Assembly (NCBI RefSeq): GCF_058153355.1
Contig: NZ_CM177019.1
Direction: 5' to 3' (one strand)
DNA length: 64,000 nt
How positions within the stretch are numbered: the first letter of the stretch is position 1; each line of letters begins with the position of its first letter. The position numbers were made by a program. Below are positions 24,001 to 27,000 of this stretch, in pieces.

Positions 24001-27000
24001 CCGGGAACTGAAAGCCCGTATCACTGTTGCCAGCTACTTTAAGCCAATGTGCGCCGCGCTGGAGGCGTACCGGGCAGAACTGGGTAAAAACACTCTACAG
24101 CACCACTACACCACGGAAGCTAATATGCTGGCGCGTATCGTGCTGGGTGGCATGACTGCAAAACAGTGGGCACTGGCGAACGGCATCACAAGCGAACCAC
24201 GCGACCACATGAGCACGTTGCAGCTTGAGCACCTTTCTTACCTTGAGCAGAGCAATATCACGCTGATTGAGTTAGGCCAGGACTACCACCAGCGGAAAGC
24301 TGAATTAATTCGTCTTTCGCAGCGCTGGTTAGCCCGTCGCATGGAGGAAAACAACCATGTGTAACGCTCTGACCGTTACAAAAAGAGAAAGCGCCCCGTT
24401 GCCGGAGCGCCTTTGTGAACGAATAGCCTACTGCGCCATATTGCTTACTGTCTACGAGGCAGATTATAGCGTTGTGGTCGCACAGAGTGAAGGCACTGAT
24501 CACCGTTACTACAGCACGCCAGAAATGCAGAATATTTTGCTGCAAAATGCCGCTGGCCACGCTGTCCGGAAAGCAAAAAATTTTGCTGGTGGCGCGACTG
24601 ATACGATTTTTTCTGGTCGCCAGGTGCTGATCAATCTGATGTCTGATTTCGTTCTGGATAAAACAAAGGCGACCGCAGAGGGCCACCAGTGGGAAAGCTA
24701 CACACTTGAACACATCGCCAACAATGCCAGATTTGCGGCTGGTGGGCAATGTGATCAGTGTGTTGGCTTGCTGGTGGGCTGTTCGTCTGGTTCAGTCCGT
24801 TGCCATGCATGGAGTGAACGCATTTTCCAGGAATACTCTTTGAGGTACTTCTCAAGAGCAAACGCACACGGGGCGAATCTCTCCGGTTCATGTTCGTTTA
24901 CCGCATTTTTGCGTTGTTTTTTCCTGGATGAGGATAATTTCTTTAATGATTTGTCAGTCATCGTATATACCTGTAACCCTGTGCGCCACAGTTCACTGCA
25001 CCACGGCGCTGATGGTGATTACTCTGATTCTTTGGCCTTGCGGCGCTGGCGGCGTTTGATCTCACCTTCAAGTGCCGAAACGATAAATTGTCCAGTGCTT
25101 TCGCCTTCTTCCTTTAAACTTTCTACAGCGTCAGCTATTGCATGGGGTACTCGTGCCTCAAGTTTTTTTGATTTTCCATTAACTGCTTTCGTTGCCATAT
25201 CTGATTCCCTTGTTATTAGGTGGCTGACAGTATACACACAAGAAAATGGAAAAACACTATTGACGTGGCTGACACCTGTTACTAGTATAGTGGCTGACAC
25301 CTTTATTAAGGTAATCGATGAAAAGACAAAGCCCGCAGGCGCTACCAACACCAACGGGCTTCTAACCACCAACGATAGAAAGCGTATCGAGGTAGCTATG
25401 TTAAATCATACCACACACCCGCAAGGGCGGGACTCGCACAACCTGAATAAAGCGGGGGTAAAAAACCAGTTGATCGCCACTGCCAGCCAGGGCTATGATT
25501 TATCTGCACCAGCAAAATCTGGTGCCCGGATTGGCGTCCTGAAAATTCTGAAGGCGACATATGACGCGCCGAGCGTCTTTTTTTATGTCGTAGGTCTGAC
25601 TCACCCATTTTTTGGGCGTTGGTGTATAATCCAGCGCCTTTGTCAATCAATGGTGGCTCAGGCGGGGGCTTCTTCGGAAGCGCCGGTATCCTTCAGAGCC
25701 GGTTACGCCAACCCTGTCTGGGCTACCACCAGCGAAATTGGCGTTTCCGGTGGTAGCGTAACCTGCTATCTGAAGGAGGCTGCCGACATGGCTACTACCC
25801 CTACCCTTGTACATTCTCAAACCGTCTTTCTCTGGCGCTTTATCGCCCTGAGCACAGCACAACCGCGCGTGATTCACATCGTGGCCACCAGCGAACAGGA
25901 AGCCCGCCAGCAATCTCCGGCTGGCTGCGTGATGGTATTCGCCGCCCGTATTCGTCAGGAGGTGGGCCATGATTAATCTGTCACTTACCGACCTTAACCG
26001 TAAGCGTCTTATCAGGACCGTCTGGCAAATTCCCGATGCTTTGGACAAAGTATCCACCACTAAATTAATAGTGGGTGATAAAAATGTCAGATATACAAAA
26101 AAATGCCTCTCCGGGAAGGCCTAAAGGGTGCCTGAATTATCCTCCTGAATTCAAACAACGACTCATAGAAGCATCATTCCAGCCAGGTGTTTCAATTTCC
26201 AGACTGGCCCTGGACAATGGTATTAATGCCAATCTGTTGTTCAAATGGCGTCAGAAATGGCGGCAGGGGAAGATAAAATTGCCATCATCAGAATCAGGCA
26301 GAGAATCTCAGTTAATTCCTGTCACTATTGATGCCCAACTCCCAACTGCTCCGGCTAATGAGCCACTGACCGCAAGACCGTCAGTAACACCGGAAATACA
26401 CAGCATCTCCTGTGAGATTACGTTCAGAAACGGCACCCTTCGGTTGAACGGGGCAGTGAATGAAAATCTGCTGTCCTTGCTTATACAGGAGCTGAGACGG
26501 TGATATCTCTCCCTGCAGGTTCGCGTATCTGGCTGGTTGCAGGTATCACCGATATGCGAAATGGCTTTAACGGCCTGGCCTCAAAAGTTCAGAACGTCCT
26601 GAAGGATGACCCGTTCTCCGGGCATCTGTTCATCTTCCGCGGACGCCGGGGTGACCAGATAAAAGTGTTGTGGGCTGACAGTGACGGACTGTGCCTCTTC
26701 ACCAGACGCCTGGAGCGGGGCCGCTTCGTCTGGCCGGTCACCCGTGACGGCAAGGTGCACCTTACTCCGGCCCAGTTATCCATGCTTCTTGAGGGCATCG
26801 ACTGGAAACACCCGAAACGAACGGAACGCGCTGGCATCCGCATATAACCCGTTGTAAAGTGAGGATATGGACACCTCACTTGCTCATGAGAATGCCCGCC
26901 TGCGGGCACTGTTGCAGACGCAACAGGACACCATCCGCCAGATGGCGAAATACAACCGCCTGCTCTCACAGCGGGTGGCGGCTTATGCTTCCGAAATCAA

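What the first reader, a model, noticed from the sequence alone, without database searches (positions are those of the whole stretch)
25019..25800. Putative genetic switch: RHH gene, three GTGGCTGACA direct repeats around a near-consensus promoter, and a roughly 490-nt leader of uncertain coding status
A 59-aa RHH-type ORF on the minus strand abuts three direct repeats that bracket and overlap a plus-strand TTGACG-17-TAGTAT promoter, a classic operator layout. Downstream, about 490 nt precede the next well-supported start (strong Shine-Dalgarno at 25788); this stretch is open in one frame but the translation looks non-protein-like. In P4-type satellites, immunity is set by a small RNA processed from such a leader, so this could be an RNA-based regulatory region.
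Basis: partly seen in the sequence, partly recalled or inferred. Interest (0 to 1): 0.55.

Follow-up and report, generated by a model that had tools for sequence, protein, structure and literature searches.

The report
Satellite-island switch: protein repressor plus RNA immunity
This is the control region of a phage-satellite island (EcCICFT073-type PICI) in an Escherichia chromosome: it stacks a known P4-type small-RNA immunity cassette behind a promoter that appears to be controlled by a small uncharacterised ribbon-helix-helix protein, a candidate for the repressor that has not been identified in Gram-negative PICIs.

Summary
Three exact GTGGCTGACA boxes sit at 25220, 25265 and 25290 around a TTGACG-17-TAGTAT promoter, next to a 59-aa minus-strand gene, and a long frame is open downstream.

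The "leader" is a P4-type immunity cassette. Rfam scores isrK/seqA at 68.8 bits and C4/CI RNA at 79.9 bits. The region is homologous to the P4 cI region. The C4 loop co-varies three ways with targets in isrK and over the Shine-Dalgarno of the Icd/Kil-like gene. The 375-nt cassette is an in-frame insertion into an EcCICFT073-type icd-like gene.

The small protein belongs to the YlcI/YnfO family, and its predicted fold is RHH. In about 60 loci across Enterobacterales, three GTG-N5-CAC boxes sit at fixed positions on the promoter. Their 5-bp core is the same within a locus, differs between loci, and tracks the beta-strand residues of YlcI. I infer a repressor/operator pair; binding has not been shown.

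- A conserved two-hairpin 5'UTR that has no Rfam family.
- The icd frame is open for 1.6 kb, antisense through ylcI. Synonymous-site selection keeps it open, as with P4 eta.

The RNA part is already known. The RHH module and the antisense nesting appear undescribed.

The parts
24357..25976 (+). Eta-like long ORF in the icd frame (539 codons). It has a GGAGGA Shine-Dalgarno at 24343-24348, and its ATG at 24357 overlaps the stop of the upstream ant gene (24362-24364). It runs antisense through orf68 and ylcI, then through the operators, both promoters, isrK and C4, and ends as the Icd-like protein.
   Evidence: The frame is kept open by selection. The only protein-family hits are Pfam Phage_ASH on aa 381-487, which is the translation of isrK plus C4, and Icd-like at the C-terminus. 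P4 has the equivalent ORF at 8168-8812.
24755..24961 (-). orf68, a small gene downstream of ylcI on the same strand (phrog_21027, function unknown).
   Evidence: A small minus-strand gene is annotated at the same place in E. coli PICIs, but there are no tblastn hits in the 71 non-E. coli loci.
25019..25198 (-). ylcI-family gene encoding a 59-aa ribbon-helix-helix protein, the proposed repressor.
25220..25230 (+). Operator box O1, GTGGCTGACAG. It abuts a conserved GTATAC (25230-25235). Read on the minus strand, 25229-25234 is TATACT, the likely -10 of the ylcI promoter.
   Evidence: The box starts 22 nt beyond the ylcI ATG (zero-based offset 21) in nearly all loci.
25260..25288 (+). Outer promoter P_out: -35 TTGACG (25260-25265), 17-bp spacer, -10 TAGTAT (25283-25288).
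   Evidence: The -35 hexamer TTGA(C/A)G starts 62 nt beyond the ylcI ATG (zero-based offset 61) in about 60 loci.
25265..25275 (+). Operator box O2, GTGGCTGACAC. It overlaps the last base of the -35 hexamer and the start of the spacer.
25290..25300 (+). Operator box O3, GTGGCTGACAC, lying just after the -10 hexamer and over the expected transcription start.
   Evidence: In some specificity classes this box is inverted.
25331..25359 (+). 5'UTR hairpin A. The outer stem is GCCCG/CGGGC, with an inner stem and loop.
   Evidence: Alignment A3 of 42 loci. Over hairpins A and B together, 89.5% of cells are paired against 30-40% when the structure is slid, and 12 of 15 pairs show compensatory changes. 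No Rfam match.
25360..25397 (+). Conserved single strand UUCUAACCACCAA (25360-25372), then hairpin B CGATA-GAAAGCG-TATCG (25373-25389), then the Shine-Dalgarno GAGG (25389-25392).
25398..25451 (+). First 18 codons (MLNHTTHPQGRDSHNLNK) of the resident EcCICFT073-type icd-like gene, now separated from the rest of that gene by the cassette.
   Evidence: Identical to the N-terminus of the EcCICFT073 Icd-like protein. L002 and L026 show the uninterrupted form.
25452..25826 (+). P4-type immunity cassette, a 375-nt in-frame insertion relative to EcCICFT073.
   Evidence: Comparison with L082 and L002. The junction is present in 70 of 5426 complete E. coli genomes.
25470..25499 (+). Inner promoter P_in (TTGATC-18-TATGAT), positional homologue of P4 PLE.
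   Evidence: It aligns with the TTGCCT...TATAGT of P4 in alignment A2. The Rfam isrK model starts 7 nt after the -10 hexamer.
25506..25583 (+). isrK / P4 seqA-like leader RNA. It carries the decoy or target sites b1 (25528-25537) and a1 (25547-25554), and an intrinsic terminator (stem 25563-25577 followed by a T run).
   Evidence: Rfam RF01394 scores 68.8 bits (GA 50), and c4-a1b1 scores 32 bits, below its threshold. P4 gives the same hit.
25646..25733 (+). C4 / P4 CI-type antisense RNA. Loop a' is UCCUUCAGA (25689-25697) and single strand b' is ACGCCAACCC (25705-25714).
   Evidence: Rfam RF01695 scores 79.9 bits (GA 45, E 9e-15). The minimum-free-energy fold is -46.4 kcal/mol with the family topology. 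Identity to the P4 cI region is 72% (E 2e-14).
25738..25779 (+). seqC-like target. It comprises b2 UUGGCGU (25738-25744) and a2 UCUGAAGGA (25769-25777), and a2 overlaps the Shine-Dalgarno GAAGGAGG (25772-25779).
   Evidence: Inverted repeats I6 and I12. Covariation with a' across four variants, P4 included.
25788..25976 (+). Icd-like / P4 Kil-like gene (62 aa), the first gene of the replication operon.
   Evidence: NCBIfam NF033153 scores 69.3 bits against a cut-off of 25. It aligns with P4 kil.

Best explanation
The finding is the regulatory hub of an EcCICFT073-type phage-inducible chromosomal island (PICI, a phage satellite). The island is integrated at tRNA-Gly(CCC) in an Escherichia chromosome. 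Three control layers act on the operon that starts with an Icd/Kil-like gene and continues into the primase.

**Layer 1: protein repressor (inferred).** A YlcI-family RHH dimer binds three 11-bp boxes of the form GTG-GCTGA-CAC. O1 lies next to the protein's own -10 element, which would give autoregulation. O2 and O3 cover the -35 edge and the -10/+1 region of a near-consensus sigma-70 promoter, P_out. Occupancy would block RNA polymerase.

**Layer 2: RNA immunity (homology shown, function inferred from P4/P1).** A P4-type immunity cassette lies 200 nt downstream.
- A constitutive internal promoter, P_in (the counterpart of P4 PLE), makes a short isrK/seqA-like RNA that ends at an intrinsic terminator.
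- Read-through transcripts are processed to the stable C4/CI RNA.
- The C4 loops a' and b' pair with b2/a2 across the Shine-Dalgarno of the icd-like gene, and with b1/a1 in the leader.
- This pairing blocks translation and causes early termination.

[quoted passage not shown] It runs antisense through ylcI and on through the whole region into icd. When AlpA turns on the upstream promoter, ribosomes translating this corridor would carry transcription through the operators and the immunity cassette. That transcription would also collide with ylcI expression and so flip the switch.

In this copy the operon is cut by an IS66 element 24 nt after icd and by an IS110 element inside the primase gene. 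The island is therefore probably defective, although its regulatory parts are intact.
For: **RNA layer**
- Rfam C4 scores 79.9 bits (GA 45) and isrK 68.8 bits (GA 50).
- The same two families hit P4 at its CI and seqA positions.
- BLASTN shows 72% identity to the P4 cI region.
- Alignment A2 shows the a' loop changing together with a1 and a2 in four variants:

| variant | a' | a1 | a2 |
|---|---|---|---|
| window | UCCUUCAGA | UCUGAAGG | UCUGAAGGA |
| L001 | UCUUCGUUA | UUAACGAAG | UAACGAAGA |
| L079 | CUUCAGUGU | AAACUGAAG | ACACUGAGG |
| P4 | UCCUGUGA | UUCACAGG | UUCACAGGA |

- The b' strand likewise changes together with b1 and b2 between E. coli and P4.
- PMC4825925 states that IsrK is a structural homologue of P4 seqA.
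- PMC10111431 reports C4/isrK hits in Gram-negative PICIs and summarises the eta/PLE/CI model.

**Protein layer**
- NF041551 scores 64.4 bits.
- In 56 unique loci the box flanks are invariant and the 5-bp core is hypervariable.
- Box 2 and box 3 differ by 0.46 of 11 positions within a locus against 3.7 between loci (permutation p <= 1e-4).
- 24 beta-strand variants map almost one-to-one onto cores.
- The same protein and box class occurs with different downstream leaders: the window has one type, while Xenorhabdus and Pectobacterium have another.
- EcCICFT073, the prototype Gram-negative PICI, has the same layout.

**Corridor**
- The icd frame has no stop in the intergenic region in 39 of 66 loci, against 5 and 8 loci for the other two frames.
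- In ylcI, codons preceding CAN end in T in 4 of 288 cases against 23.4% elsewhere (p = 3e-26). A T there would create an antisense TGA.
- The corridor ORF has an SD and an ATG that overlaps the ant stop.
- P4 has a 214-codon ORF that runs from the end of vis through PLE and CI into kil.
Against: - No biochemical or transcript data exist for this element. Binding of YlcI to the boxes is inferred only from covariation and position. The protein gene and its boxes are physically linked, so part of their correlation comes from co-inheritance.
- The boxes are 25 and 45 bp apart, not adjacent as in many RHH operators.
- Published work on EcCICFT073 explains induction through the activator AlpA alone and did not need a repressor.
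- The corridor is closed in about 40% of loci.
- The role of the corridor rests on analogy with P4 eta. I know that model only from a secondary summary and from memory, because the primary papers were not available.
- The ylcI promoter has no convincing -35 element.
- The island is disrupted by IS elements, so present-day function in this host is uncertain.
Confidence: 0.7

Rival explanations
1. The RHH protein only regulates itself, for example as the antitoxin-like first gene of a small ylcI-orf68 addiction or accessory operon. On this view the boxes have no role in controlling the rightward operon.
Against: Boxes 2 and 3 sit on the -35 edge and the -10/+1 of the divergent promoter at constant offsets in about 60 loci. 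That placement is unnecessary for pure autoregulation. orf68 has no detectable homologue in the 71 non-E. coli loci, so it is not an obligate partner.
Confidence: 0.12
2. The three boxes are bound by a different island protein, such as AlpA, the primase/replication initiator acting on iterons, or the Icd-like protein. On this view their match to YlcI variants is only genetic linkage.
For: The gene and the boxes are adjacent and would be co-inherited. P4 carries short repeats bound by its primase at ori and crr. PHROGs label Icd-like families as 'transcriptional repressor'.
Against: The same box core and YlcI beta-strand class occurs with different Icd types and leaders. Recombination breakpoints fall just after box 3: the window and L002 are 96.5% identical through ylcI and the boxes and then diverge, and the window and EcCICFT073 show the reverse pattern. 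The variable protein positions are those of the DNA-reading beta-strand. The PHROG label most likely descends from the obsolete P4 'cI protein' annotation.
Confidence: 0.06
3. The 490-nt stretch is ordinary protein-coding sequence, an Ash/Eta/Bro-network protein. On this view the RNA-family matches are incidental.
For: The frame is open, which happens in only 0.9% of dinucleotide shuffles. Pfam Phage_ASH matches aa 381-487 (E 1e-34). PGAP annotates 'ash family protein' or long 'Icd-like' coding sequences here.
Against: Substitutions in the leader show no third-position excess (28/20/26, 22/21/23, 35/43/40), whereas icd does show one (16/9/22, 14/13/22). Conservation follows RNA stems and loop-target complementarity. 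In P4 the immunity factor was shown to be the RNA (PMC4825925; PMC10111431). The Pfam family covers exactly the isrK plus C4 segment.
Confidence: 0.05
4. The region is an inert relic. The island is decaying, and none of these elements does anything in this host today.
For: An IS66 element starts at 26000, 24 nt after icd and inside the next gene. An IS110 splits the P4-family primase into 29149-30189 and 32108-32833. A second IS66 lies at about 39.7-42.15 kb.
Against: ylcI, all three boxes, both promoters, the RNA structures and the 539-codon frame are intact, with no frameshift or stop. C4-type RNAs act in trans and could still confer immunity or cross-talk. This reading concerns current activity, not what the element is.
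Confidence: 0.3

Closest known systems
Phage-plasmid P4 immunity region (PLE, seqA, CI RNA, seqC, nested kil/eta)
   Same: The order of parts is the same: internal promoter, seqA/isrK leader with terminator, CI/C4 RNA, then seqC overlapping the Shine-Dalgarno of a 62-65-aa Kil/Icd-like gene. There is direct nucleotide homology (72%). Both Rfam families are found in P4. Loop and targets co-vary three ways. A long in-frame ORF starts at the end of the alpA/vis-like gene.
   Different: P4 has no ylcI gene and no GTG-N5-CAC boxes. From memory, its outer promoter PLL is a delta/Ogr-activated late promoter. Here the cassette lies downstream of a near-consensus promoter covered by RHH boxes, and the eta-like frame runs antisense through a real gene. 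The host element is a PICI (EcCICFT073 type), not a P4-like satellite.
P1/P7 immI operon (c4-icd-ant)
   Same: A C4 antisense RNA is processed from the operon leader. Its a'/b' elements pair with a2/b2 over the icd ribosome-binding site and with upstream a1/b1 sites. The first gene is icd-like. (Rfam C4 and c4-a1b1; Weinberg 2010.)
   Different: Here icd is followed by replication genes rather than ant. The antirepressor gene lies upstream instead. The sequence is closer to P4 than to P1.
Salmonella Gifsy-1 isrK-orf45-anrP locus
   Same: The isrK family matches above threshold. A short terminated sRNA and a read-through mRNA arise from one promoter. The downstream roughly 80-nt processed RNA (STnc1160/orf45') is conserved at the nucleotide level but not at the amino-acid level (PMC4825925).
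   Different: In Gifsy-1 the downstream gene is an antirepressor, and IsrK acts in trans as an activator. No RHH gene or operator module is described there.
EcCICFT073 and other Gram-negative PICIs
   Same: The synteny is identical: int, alpA, (ant), ylcI on the minus strand, icd-like, small ORFs, DUF4222, primase, ssb. The first 18 codons and the C-terminal two-thirds of the icd-like gene are nearly identical.
   Different: EcCICFT073 has the short leader without the isrK/C4 cassette, and it belongs to a different box and protein specificity class (GGCCA rather than GCTGA). The published regulatory model involves only AlpA, and ylcI is not discussed.
RHH repressors that read repeated short boxes (omega of pSM19035, Arc, CopG, AmrZ)
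   Different: There is no detectable sequence similarity (Pfam and PDB sequence searches were empty). The boxes are dispersed 22-45 bp apart rather than contiguous. The C-terminal motif GEIKRRQR(K/R) is invariant.
Stl/Rpr master repressors of Gram-positive PICIs/SaPIs
   Same: It is a small island-encoded regulator transcribed divergently from the replication operon, with its binding sites in the divergent intergenic region. That is the position Stl occupies (PMC6092414).
   Different: The fold is unrelated and the protein is much smaller. No evidence exists yet for de-repression by a helper-phage protein. The gene is embedded antisense in a long ORF.

Membership tests
C4 antisense RNA / P4 CI RNA (Rfam RF01695) | Covariance-model score above the curated gathering threshold over the full model | tested here: met
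   79.9 bits against GA 45, model positions 1-87 of 87, E 8.9e-15.
C4 antisense RNA / P4 CI RNA (Rfam RF01695) | A long closing stem enclosing two hairpins, with an exposed loop (a') and a single strand (b') | tested here: met
   The cmscan alignment and the independent minimum-free-energy fold of -46.4 kcal/mol give the same topology.
C4 antisense RNA / P4 CI RNA (Rfam RF01695) | Complementary target sites both upstream and downstream in the same transcript, with the downstream one covering the ribosome-binding site of the first ORF | tested here: met
   a1 25547-25554, b1 25528-25537, b2 25738-25744, and a2 25769-25777 overlapping the SD at 25772-25779. The sites co-vary with the loop in four variants, P4 included.
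C4 antisense RNA / P4 CI RNA (Rfam RF01695) | Matured from the leader transcript by RNase P (and PNPase) into a stable RNA of about 77-80 nt | not testable with these tools
   Requires a Northern blot or 5'/3' end mapping.
isrK / P4 seqA leader (Rfam RF01394) | Covariance-model score above threshold, its own promoter, and an intrinsic terminator | tested here: met
   68.8 bits against GA 50. TTGATC-18-TATGAT ends 7 nt before model position 1, and the terminator stem 25563-25577 is followed by a T run. Promoter activity itself was not tested.
c4-a1b1 (Rfam RF03163) | Covariance-model score above the gathering threshold | tested here: not met
   32 bits against GA 46.7 in the window, and 44.5 bits in L001. 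The a1/b1 sequences are nevertheless present and complementary to C4.
YlcI/YnfO family (NCBIfam NF041551) | HMM score above the curated cut-off | tested here: met
   64.4 bits against a cut-off of 30, profile positions 1-42 of 42.
Ribbon-helix-helix (Arc/MetJ/CopG) DNA-binding superfamily | N-terminal beta-strand followed by two helices joined by a G-x-S/T turn, with fold similarity to solved RHH proteins | tested here: met
Ribbon-helix-helix (Arc/MetJ/CopG) DNA-binding superfamily | Sequence-profile membership (Pfam RHH families) | tested here: not met
   No Pfam match even at E <= 10. No PDB sequence relative.
Ribbon-helix-helix (Arc/MetJ/CopG) DNA-binding superfamily | Dimer binds a specific operator through the beta-ribbon | tested here: inconclusive
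   Only indirect evidence: box cores co-vary with beta-strand residues 11-15 in 56 unique loci.
Icd-like / P4 Kil (NCBIfam NF033153) | HMM score above the cut-off, and position as the first ORF after the C4/CI RNA | tested here: met
   69.3 bits against a cut-off of 25. It aligns with P4 kil. Cell-division inhibition was not tested.
Gram-negative PICI (EcCICFT073 type) | int, then alpA, then a replication module (primase) in one orientation, next to a specific attachment site, about 10-20 kb, with no phage tail or lysis genes | tested here: met
   tRNA-Gly(CCC) at 20707-20780, int at 20906-22309, alpA at 23288-23485, P4-family primase at 29149-30189 and 32108-32833, and ssb at 33375-33797. The synteny matches EcCICFT073. 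Size and late-gene content were not fully examined because of the IS insertions.
Gram-negative PICI (EcCICFT073 type) | Induction and mobilisation by a helper phage | not testable with these tools
   Requires experiments.
P4-like satellite (sensu SatelliteFinder) | Presence of psu, delta and sid together with alpha, int, alpA and epsilon | tested here: inconclusive
   Ten downstream ORFs were scanned. None matched Psu, Delta or Sid, but the island was not searched exhaustively.

The most novel reading that the evidence does not exclude
YlcI-family RHH proteins are the missing immunity or master repressors of Gram-negative PICIs. They have 20 or more operator specificities, defined by a 5-bp core read by the beta-ribbon. 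They play the role that CI RNA plays in P4, namely silencing the promoter internal to an eta-like gene. Because ylcI is embedded antisense within that eta-like frame, which selection at ylcI synonymous sites keeps open, AlpA-driven translated read-through from upstream both bypasses the repressor and switches it off. That would make the region a convergent-transcription toggle.
Probability: 0.35. Interest if true: 0.8.

Novelty: new variant of a known kind. Interest (0 to 1): 0.62.

Why it matters
**An open question in the PICI field.** Gram-positive PICIs are held silent by a master repressor (Stl/Rpr) that helper phages inactivate. [quoted passage not shown] It calls the different strategy "a mystery" (PMC6092414).

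**A candidate answer.** The small RHH gene examined here is present in EcCICFT073 itself. It carries late-added locus tags there, and neither PICI paper checked for it mentions ylcI, RHH or Icd-like. It is also present in PICI-like islands of many Enterobacterales genera. Its operator boxes sit on the promoter of the replication operon. This gives a concrete candidate that can be tested with simple reporter and gel-shift experiments.

**Specificity classes.** The one-to-one pairing of box cores with beta-strand variants offers a natural set of orthogonal repressor/operator pairs. It would also explain immunity groups among co-resident islands.

**Interchangeable immunity modules.** Finding a P4-type RNA cassette stacked behind the RHH-controlled promoter suggests that RNA immunity and protein immunity are interchangeable modules acting on the same internal promoter.

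**Overlapping selection.** Selection at synonymous sites of ylcI to keep the opposite-strand frame open is a clean example of constraint from an antisense "translated corridor".

**Annotation.** The RNA cassette is routinely mis-annotated as a protein. Examples are "ash family protein", long "Icd-like" coding sequences, the P4 "cI protein", and the PHROG label "transcriptional repressor".

Tried and rejected
- **No phage homologue.** tblastn of YlcI against 50,697 phage records found no match. The gene appears to be specific to islands.
- **The RNA cassette is not universal.** An Rfam scan of 40 non-E. coli loci found no C4 or isrK. I therefore rejected the idea that the cassette always accompanies ylcI.
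- **Structure prediction on the MAFFT alignment.** RNAalifold found only hairpin B, because loop-length differences put hairpin A out of register. I specified the structure by hand and counted pairs instead.
- **Full-length RNA duplex energies were uninformative.** Cognate and cross pairs scored alike because the method ignores intramolecular structure. I used explicit loop-target complementarity instead.
- **A misread stop codon.** I first read the 18 codons after ATG 25398 as a short leader peptide ending in TAA. That was a frame error: the frame continues to 25976.
- **A wrong rule for antisense stops.** I first assumed that antisense stops correspond to the sense codons TTA, CTA and TCA. 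That applies to a different frame. In this frame relation, an antisense TGA arises from a T-ending codon followed by CAN, and that is what I tested.
- **Toxin-antitoxin reading of ylcI-orf68.** I considered it and rated it low, because orf68 is not conserved outside E. coli.
- **Literature.** One paper search with generic terms returned only irrelevant papers. The primary P4 papers (Forti 1999; Sabbattini 1995) are not held. The kil/eta model is therefore cited from the summary in PMC10111431 and from the P4 sequence itself.

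
Full report
**1. The observation**

- A 59-codon minus-strand ORF runs from 25198 down to 25019.
- Three exact copies of GTGGCTGACA lie at 25220, 25265 and 25290.
- The promoter-like site TTGACG-17-TAGTAT lies at 25260-25288.
- A strong Shine-Dalgarno and ATG lie at 25772-25790.
- The frame between the promoter and that ATG is open.

The decamer has no other exact copy in the 64-kb window. There is a second promoter-like site at 25470-25499, followed by an intrinsic terminator at 25563-25583. 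And the open frame is much longer than 490 nt: it opens at 24333, its first ATG is at 24357, and it runs to 25976.

**2. Context**

The flanking chromosome (xdhA-actS-xdhB) is 95-98.6% identical to E. coli. The finding lies inside an island integrated next to tRNA-Gly(CCC). Its parts, in order, are:

| coordinates | feature |
|---|---|
| 20906-22309 | P4-type integrase |
| 22202-22269 | int-alpA RNA |
| 23288-23485 | alpA |
| 23564-24364 | ant antirepressor |
| 24755-25976 | region of interest |
| from 26000 | IS66 element |
| 28853-29152 | DUF4222-like gene |
| 29149-30189 and 32108-32833 | P4-family primase, split by an IS110 |
| 33375-33797 | ssb |
| 33834-34367 | ProQ/FinO-like gene |

This matches the synteny of EcCICFT073, the prototype Gram-negative PICI. 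That island carries int, alpA, a YlcI/YnfO gene on the minus strand, an Icd-like gene, small ORFs, DUF4222, primase and ssb.

**3. The "leader" is a P4-type RNA immunity cassette**

Rfam finds isrK at 25506-25583 (68.8 bits, GA 50) and C4 antisense RNA at 25646-25733 (79.9 bits, GA 45). It also gives a sub-threshold c4-a1b1 match.

Phage P4 itself matches 25647-25806 at 72% identity in its cI region. Rfam finds both families in P4, at the positions of CI and seqA.

An alignment of four distinct variants (window/L078, L001, L079 and P4) shows concerted change at three sites. The loop a' of the second C4 hairpin changes together with a site a1 inside isrK. It also changes together with a site a2 immediately 5' of the conserved AGGAGGCUGC ribosome-binding site.

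| variant | a' | a1 | a2 |
|---|---|---|---|
| window | UCCUUCAGA | UCUGAAGG | UCUGAAGGA |
| L001 | UCUUCGUUA | UUAACGAAG | UAACGAAGA |
| L079 | CUUCAGUGU | AAACUGAAG | ACACUGAGG |
| P4 | UCCUGUGA | UUCACAGG | UUCACAGGA |

The b' strand behaves the same way. It is ACGCCAA against UUGGCGU (twice) in the E. coli islands, and UUCUCAC against GUGAGAA (twice) in P4.

This is the published P4 logic: CI RNA pairs with seqA and seqC. PMC4825925 states that IsrK is a structural homologue of seqA. PMC10111431 notes that C4 and isrK profiles hit several Gram-negative PICIs. The RNA part is therefore a new member of a known kind.

The first gene after the cassette (25788-25976) is Icd-like (69.3 bits) and aligns with P4 kil.

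**4. The cassette is an in-frame insertion**

EcCICFT073, L002 and most loci from other genera have a short leader. Their icd-like gene starts about 100 nt after the promoter.

The window keeps the first 18 codons of that gene (MLNHTTHPQGRDSHNLNK, 25398-25451). It also keeps the C-terminal part (WRFIALSTAQPRV...). The 375 nt from 25452 to 25826 lie between them and begin just upstream of the -35 of the inner promoter.

L079 carries the same cassette joined at a different point in the resident gene, also in frame. None of 40 non-E. coli loci has C4 or isrK. The window's junction occurs in 70 of 5426 complete E. coli genomes.

**5. The RHH gene and its boxes**

The protein belongs to the YlcI/YnfO family (NF041551, 64.4 bits). 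It has no Pfam or PDB sequence relative.

I fetched 71 loci that encode homologues. In almost all of them the region upstream of the gene has the same plan:
- box 1 starts 22 nt beyond the ylcI ATG and is followed by GTATAC;
- an A-rich tract follows;
- a -35 hexamer TTGA(C/A)G starts 62 nt beyond the ATG, and its last base begins box 2;
- a -10 hexamer, often TATAGT, comes next;
- box 3 follows 89-102 nt beyond the ATG.

Each box reads GTG-N5-CAC. The flanks are invariant (entropy about 0). The five central bases are hypervariable (1.3-2.0 bits). Boxes 2 and 3 differ by 0.46 of 11 positions within a locus against 3.7 between loci (permutation p <= 1e-4). In all, 24 variants of residues 10-17 map almost one-to-one onto cores. 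Examples:

| residues 10-17 | core |
|---|---|
| SKKLEARV | GCTGA |
| SKRFDVRV | TCCGA |
| SQKMSARV | GGTGC |
| SQMTTVRI | TATTT |
| SQQLNARF | CGATT |
| SLQVSVRL | GTGTT |
| SQALKARV | GGCCA |

In several classes box 3 is inverted.

The same class occurs with different downstream leaders and Icd types. The window and L002 share ylcI and the boxes at 96.5% identity and then diverge. The window and EcCICFT073 share the leader but not the boxes. So the protein gene and its boxes travel as one module.

I conclude that YlcI most likely binds these boxes. If so, it represses the divergent promoter and probably its own promoter too. This is inference from covariation and position, and no binding data exist.

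The papers I could search do not connect YlcI, RHH or Icd-like genes with PICIs. [quoted passage not shown]

**6. A conserved structured 5'UTR**

Between box 3 and the ancestral icd start lies a motif present in nearly all loci:
- hairpin A (window 25331-25359);
- a conserved single strand UCUNACCA... (25360-25372);
- hairpin B (25373-25389), which places the Shine-Dalgarno in or next to its loop.

On a 42-sequence alignment, 89.5% of cells are paired against 30-40% for slid controls. Twelve of 15 pairs show changes on both sides. The covariation score is 0.305 against 0.106 in shuffles (0 of 500 shuffles reach it).

No Rfam family matches it. Its function is unknown. It may affect transcript stability, processing or translation initiation.

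**7. The open frame is selected**

*In the leader.* The 390 nt from ATG 25398 to 25787 have no stop in the icd frame, while the other two frames have 11 and 4 stops. Only 0.9% of dinucleotide shuffles are open. Yet substitutions between variants show no third-position excess in this stretch, whereas icd does show one. Pfam Phage_ASH matches exactly the translation of isrK plus C4 (aa 381-487 of the long ORF). The conservation there is at the RNA level.

*Further upstream.* The frame continues through both promoters, the boxes, and the whole of ylcI and orf68 in antisense. It reaches an ATG at 24357, which has a GGAGGA Shine-Dalgarno and overlaps the stop of ant.

*In other islands.* The same holds in E. 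coli PICIs, EcCICFT073 included. There the frame opens 38 nt after alpA and begins with an Ant-like N-terminus.

Counts of loci with no stop codon, by frame, across 66 unique loci:

| region | icd frame | other two frames |
|---|---|---|
| ylcI-icd intergenic region | 39 | 5 and 8 |
| ylcI antisense | 42 | 8 and 17 |
| next 300 nt upstream (65 loci) | 26 | 1 and 4 |

*ylcI is a real coding gene.* Its entropy by codon position is 0.75 / 0.55 / 1.41.

*Synonymous-site test.* In this frame relation an antisense TGA arises when a T-ending codon precedes a CAN codon. In ylcI that happens in 4 of 288 cases, against 23.4% T at other third positions (Fisher p = 3e-26). In-frame TCA is nevertheless the commonest Ser codon in ylcI, so the TCA trinucleotide itself is not avoided.

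*Where the frame begins.* In 13 of 24 open-frame loci with an identifiable upstream alpA or ant, the frame starts within about 100 nt of that gene's end.

*P4 precedent.* P4 has the same arrangement. A 214-codon ORF runs from the end of vis through PLE, seqA, CI and seqC, in frame into kil. [quoted passage not shown]

By analogy, I propose that the window's 539-codon frame is a translated corridor. It would let AlpA-dependent transcripts pass the operators and the RNA cassette while running head-on into ylcI. The openness and its selection are shown. The function is inferred.

**8. Synthesis**

In P4, the promoter internal to eta is silenced by an RNA. In short-leader PICIs, the promoter at the same position appears to be silenced by the YlcI protein. 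The window stacks both devices.

My confidence in each part:

| claim | confidence |
|---|---|
| P4-type RNA immunity identity | about 0.9 |
| YlcI as the box-binding repressor of P_out | about 0.75 |
| Eta-like bypass and toggle | about 0.5 |

This copy is probably defective because of the IS66 and IS110 insertions.

**9. Verdict**

The RNA part is already known, and the literature already notes it for PICIs.

The following appear undescribed in the literature I could search:
- the RHH/operator module with its specificity classes;
- its presence in the prototype PICI;
- the conserved 5'UTR structure;
- the antisense nesting of ylcI in a frame kept open by selection.

Together they bear on an open question about how Gram-negative PICIs are kept silent. 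I rate the finding a new variant of a known kind, with interest 0.62.

Noticed in passing
window 25331-25397; alignment A3 of 42 loci: A two-hairpin 5'UTR motif lies upstream of icd-like genes in PICI-like islands across Enterobacterales. Between the hairpins is a conserved single strand, UCUNACCA. Covariation is strong and no Rfam family matches. The tail ACCACCA resembles the sequence 3' of the C4 closing stem (25722-25735).
   Followed up: partly
window 25497-25817 (aa 381-487 of the long ORF); P4 8168-8584: Pfam PF10554 'Phage_ASH' and the PGAP names 'ash family protein' and long 'Icd-like' CDS (270 aa in L001) correspond to the translation of the isrK plus C4 RNA region. So does the old P4 'cI gene product (137 aa)'. 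The PHROG label 'transcriptional repressor' on Icd-like families probably descends from that annotation.
   Followed up: partly
window 26000-26020 (+) and 42132-42152 (-): Identical 21-nt IS66-type terminal repeats mark two IS66 copies in inverted orientation. They bracket the island segment from about 28.5 to 39.7 kb. The first copy is inserted 24 nt after the icd stop, inside the next gene, leaving a hybrid ORF at 25969-26124.
   Followed up: partly
window 29149-30189, 30248-31423, 32108-32833: The P4-family primase gene is split by an IS110-family transposase gene. The island has probably lost autonomous replication.
   Followed up: partly
window 22202-22269: An int-alpA RNA (Rfam RF02996, 45.5 bits, GA 35.8) overlaps the 3' end of the integrase ORF. 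The same family was found at the equivalent place in L013, L016, L020, L034 and L037.
   Followed up: no
window 33834-34367: The island encodes a ProQ/FinO-family RNA chaperone homologue, as does L002. It could act on the structured leader RNAs of the same island.
   Followed up: no
window 25416-25431: A hairpin CCCGC-AAGG-GCGGG lies inside the first 18 codons of the ancestral icd-like gene. It is kept through compensatory changes in other loci (for example CCCAUAAGUGGG and CCCCAUAUGGGG) while the encoded amino acids vary.
   Followed up: no
L082 (EcCICFT073) 7767-9053: In the prototype PICI, the long frame after alpA begins with about 45 aa resembling the N-terminus of Ant/Bro-N proteins. It then runs antisense through ylcI into icd. 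It may be the 'ORF3' used for the AlpA reporter fusions in PMC6092414.
   Followed up: partly
YlcI residues 46-52 (window 25043-25063, minus strand): The C-terminal motif EIKRRQR(K/R) is invariant across all operator-specificity classes. That suggests a conserved function separate from core recognition, such as backbone contacts or a partner-binding surface.
   Followed up: no
window 38351-39276: A SocA-antitoxin-like gene and a MAG6450-family-like gene lie in the distal part of the island. They may be a defence or addiction module in the accessory region.
   Followed up: no
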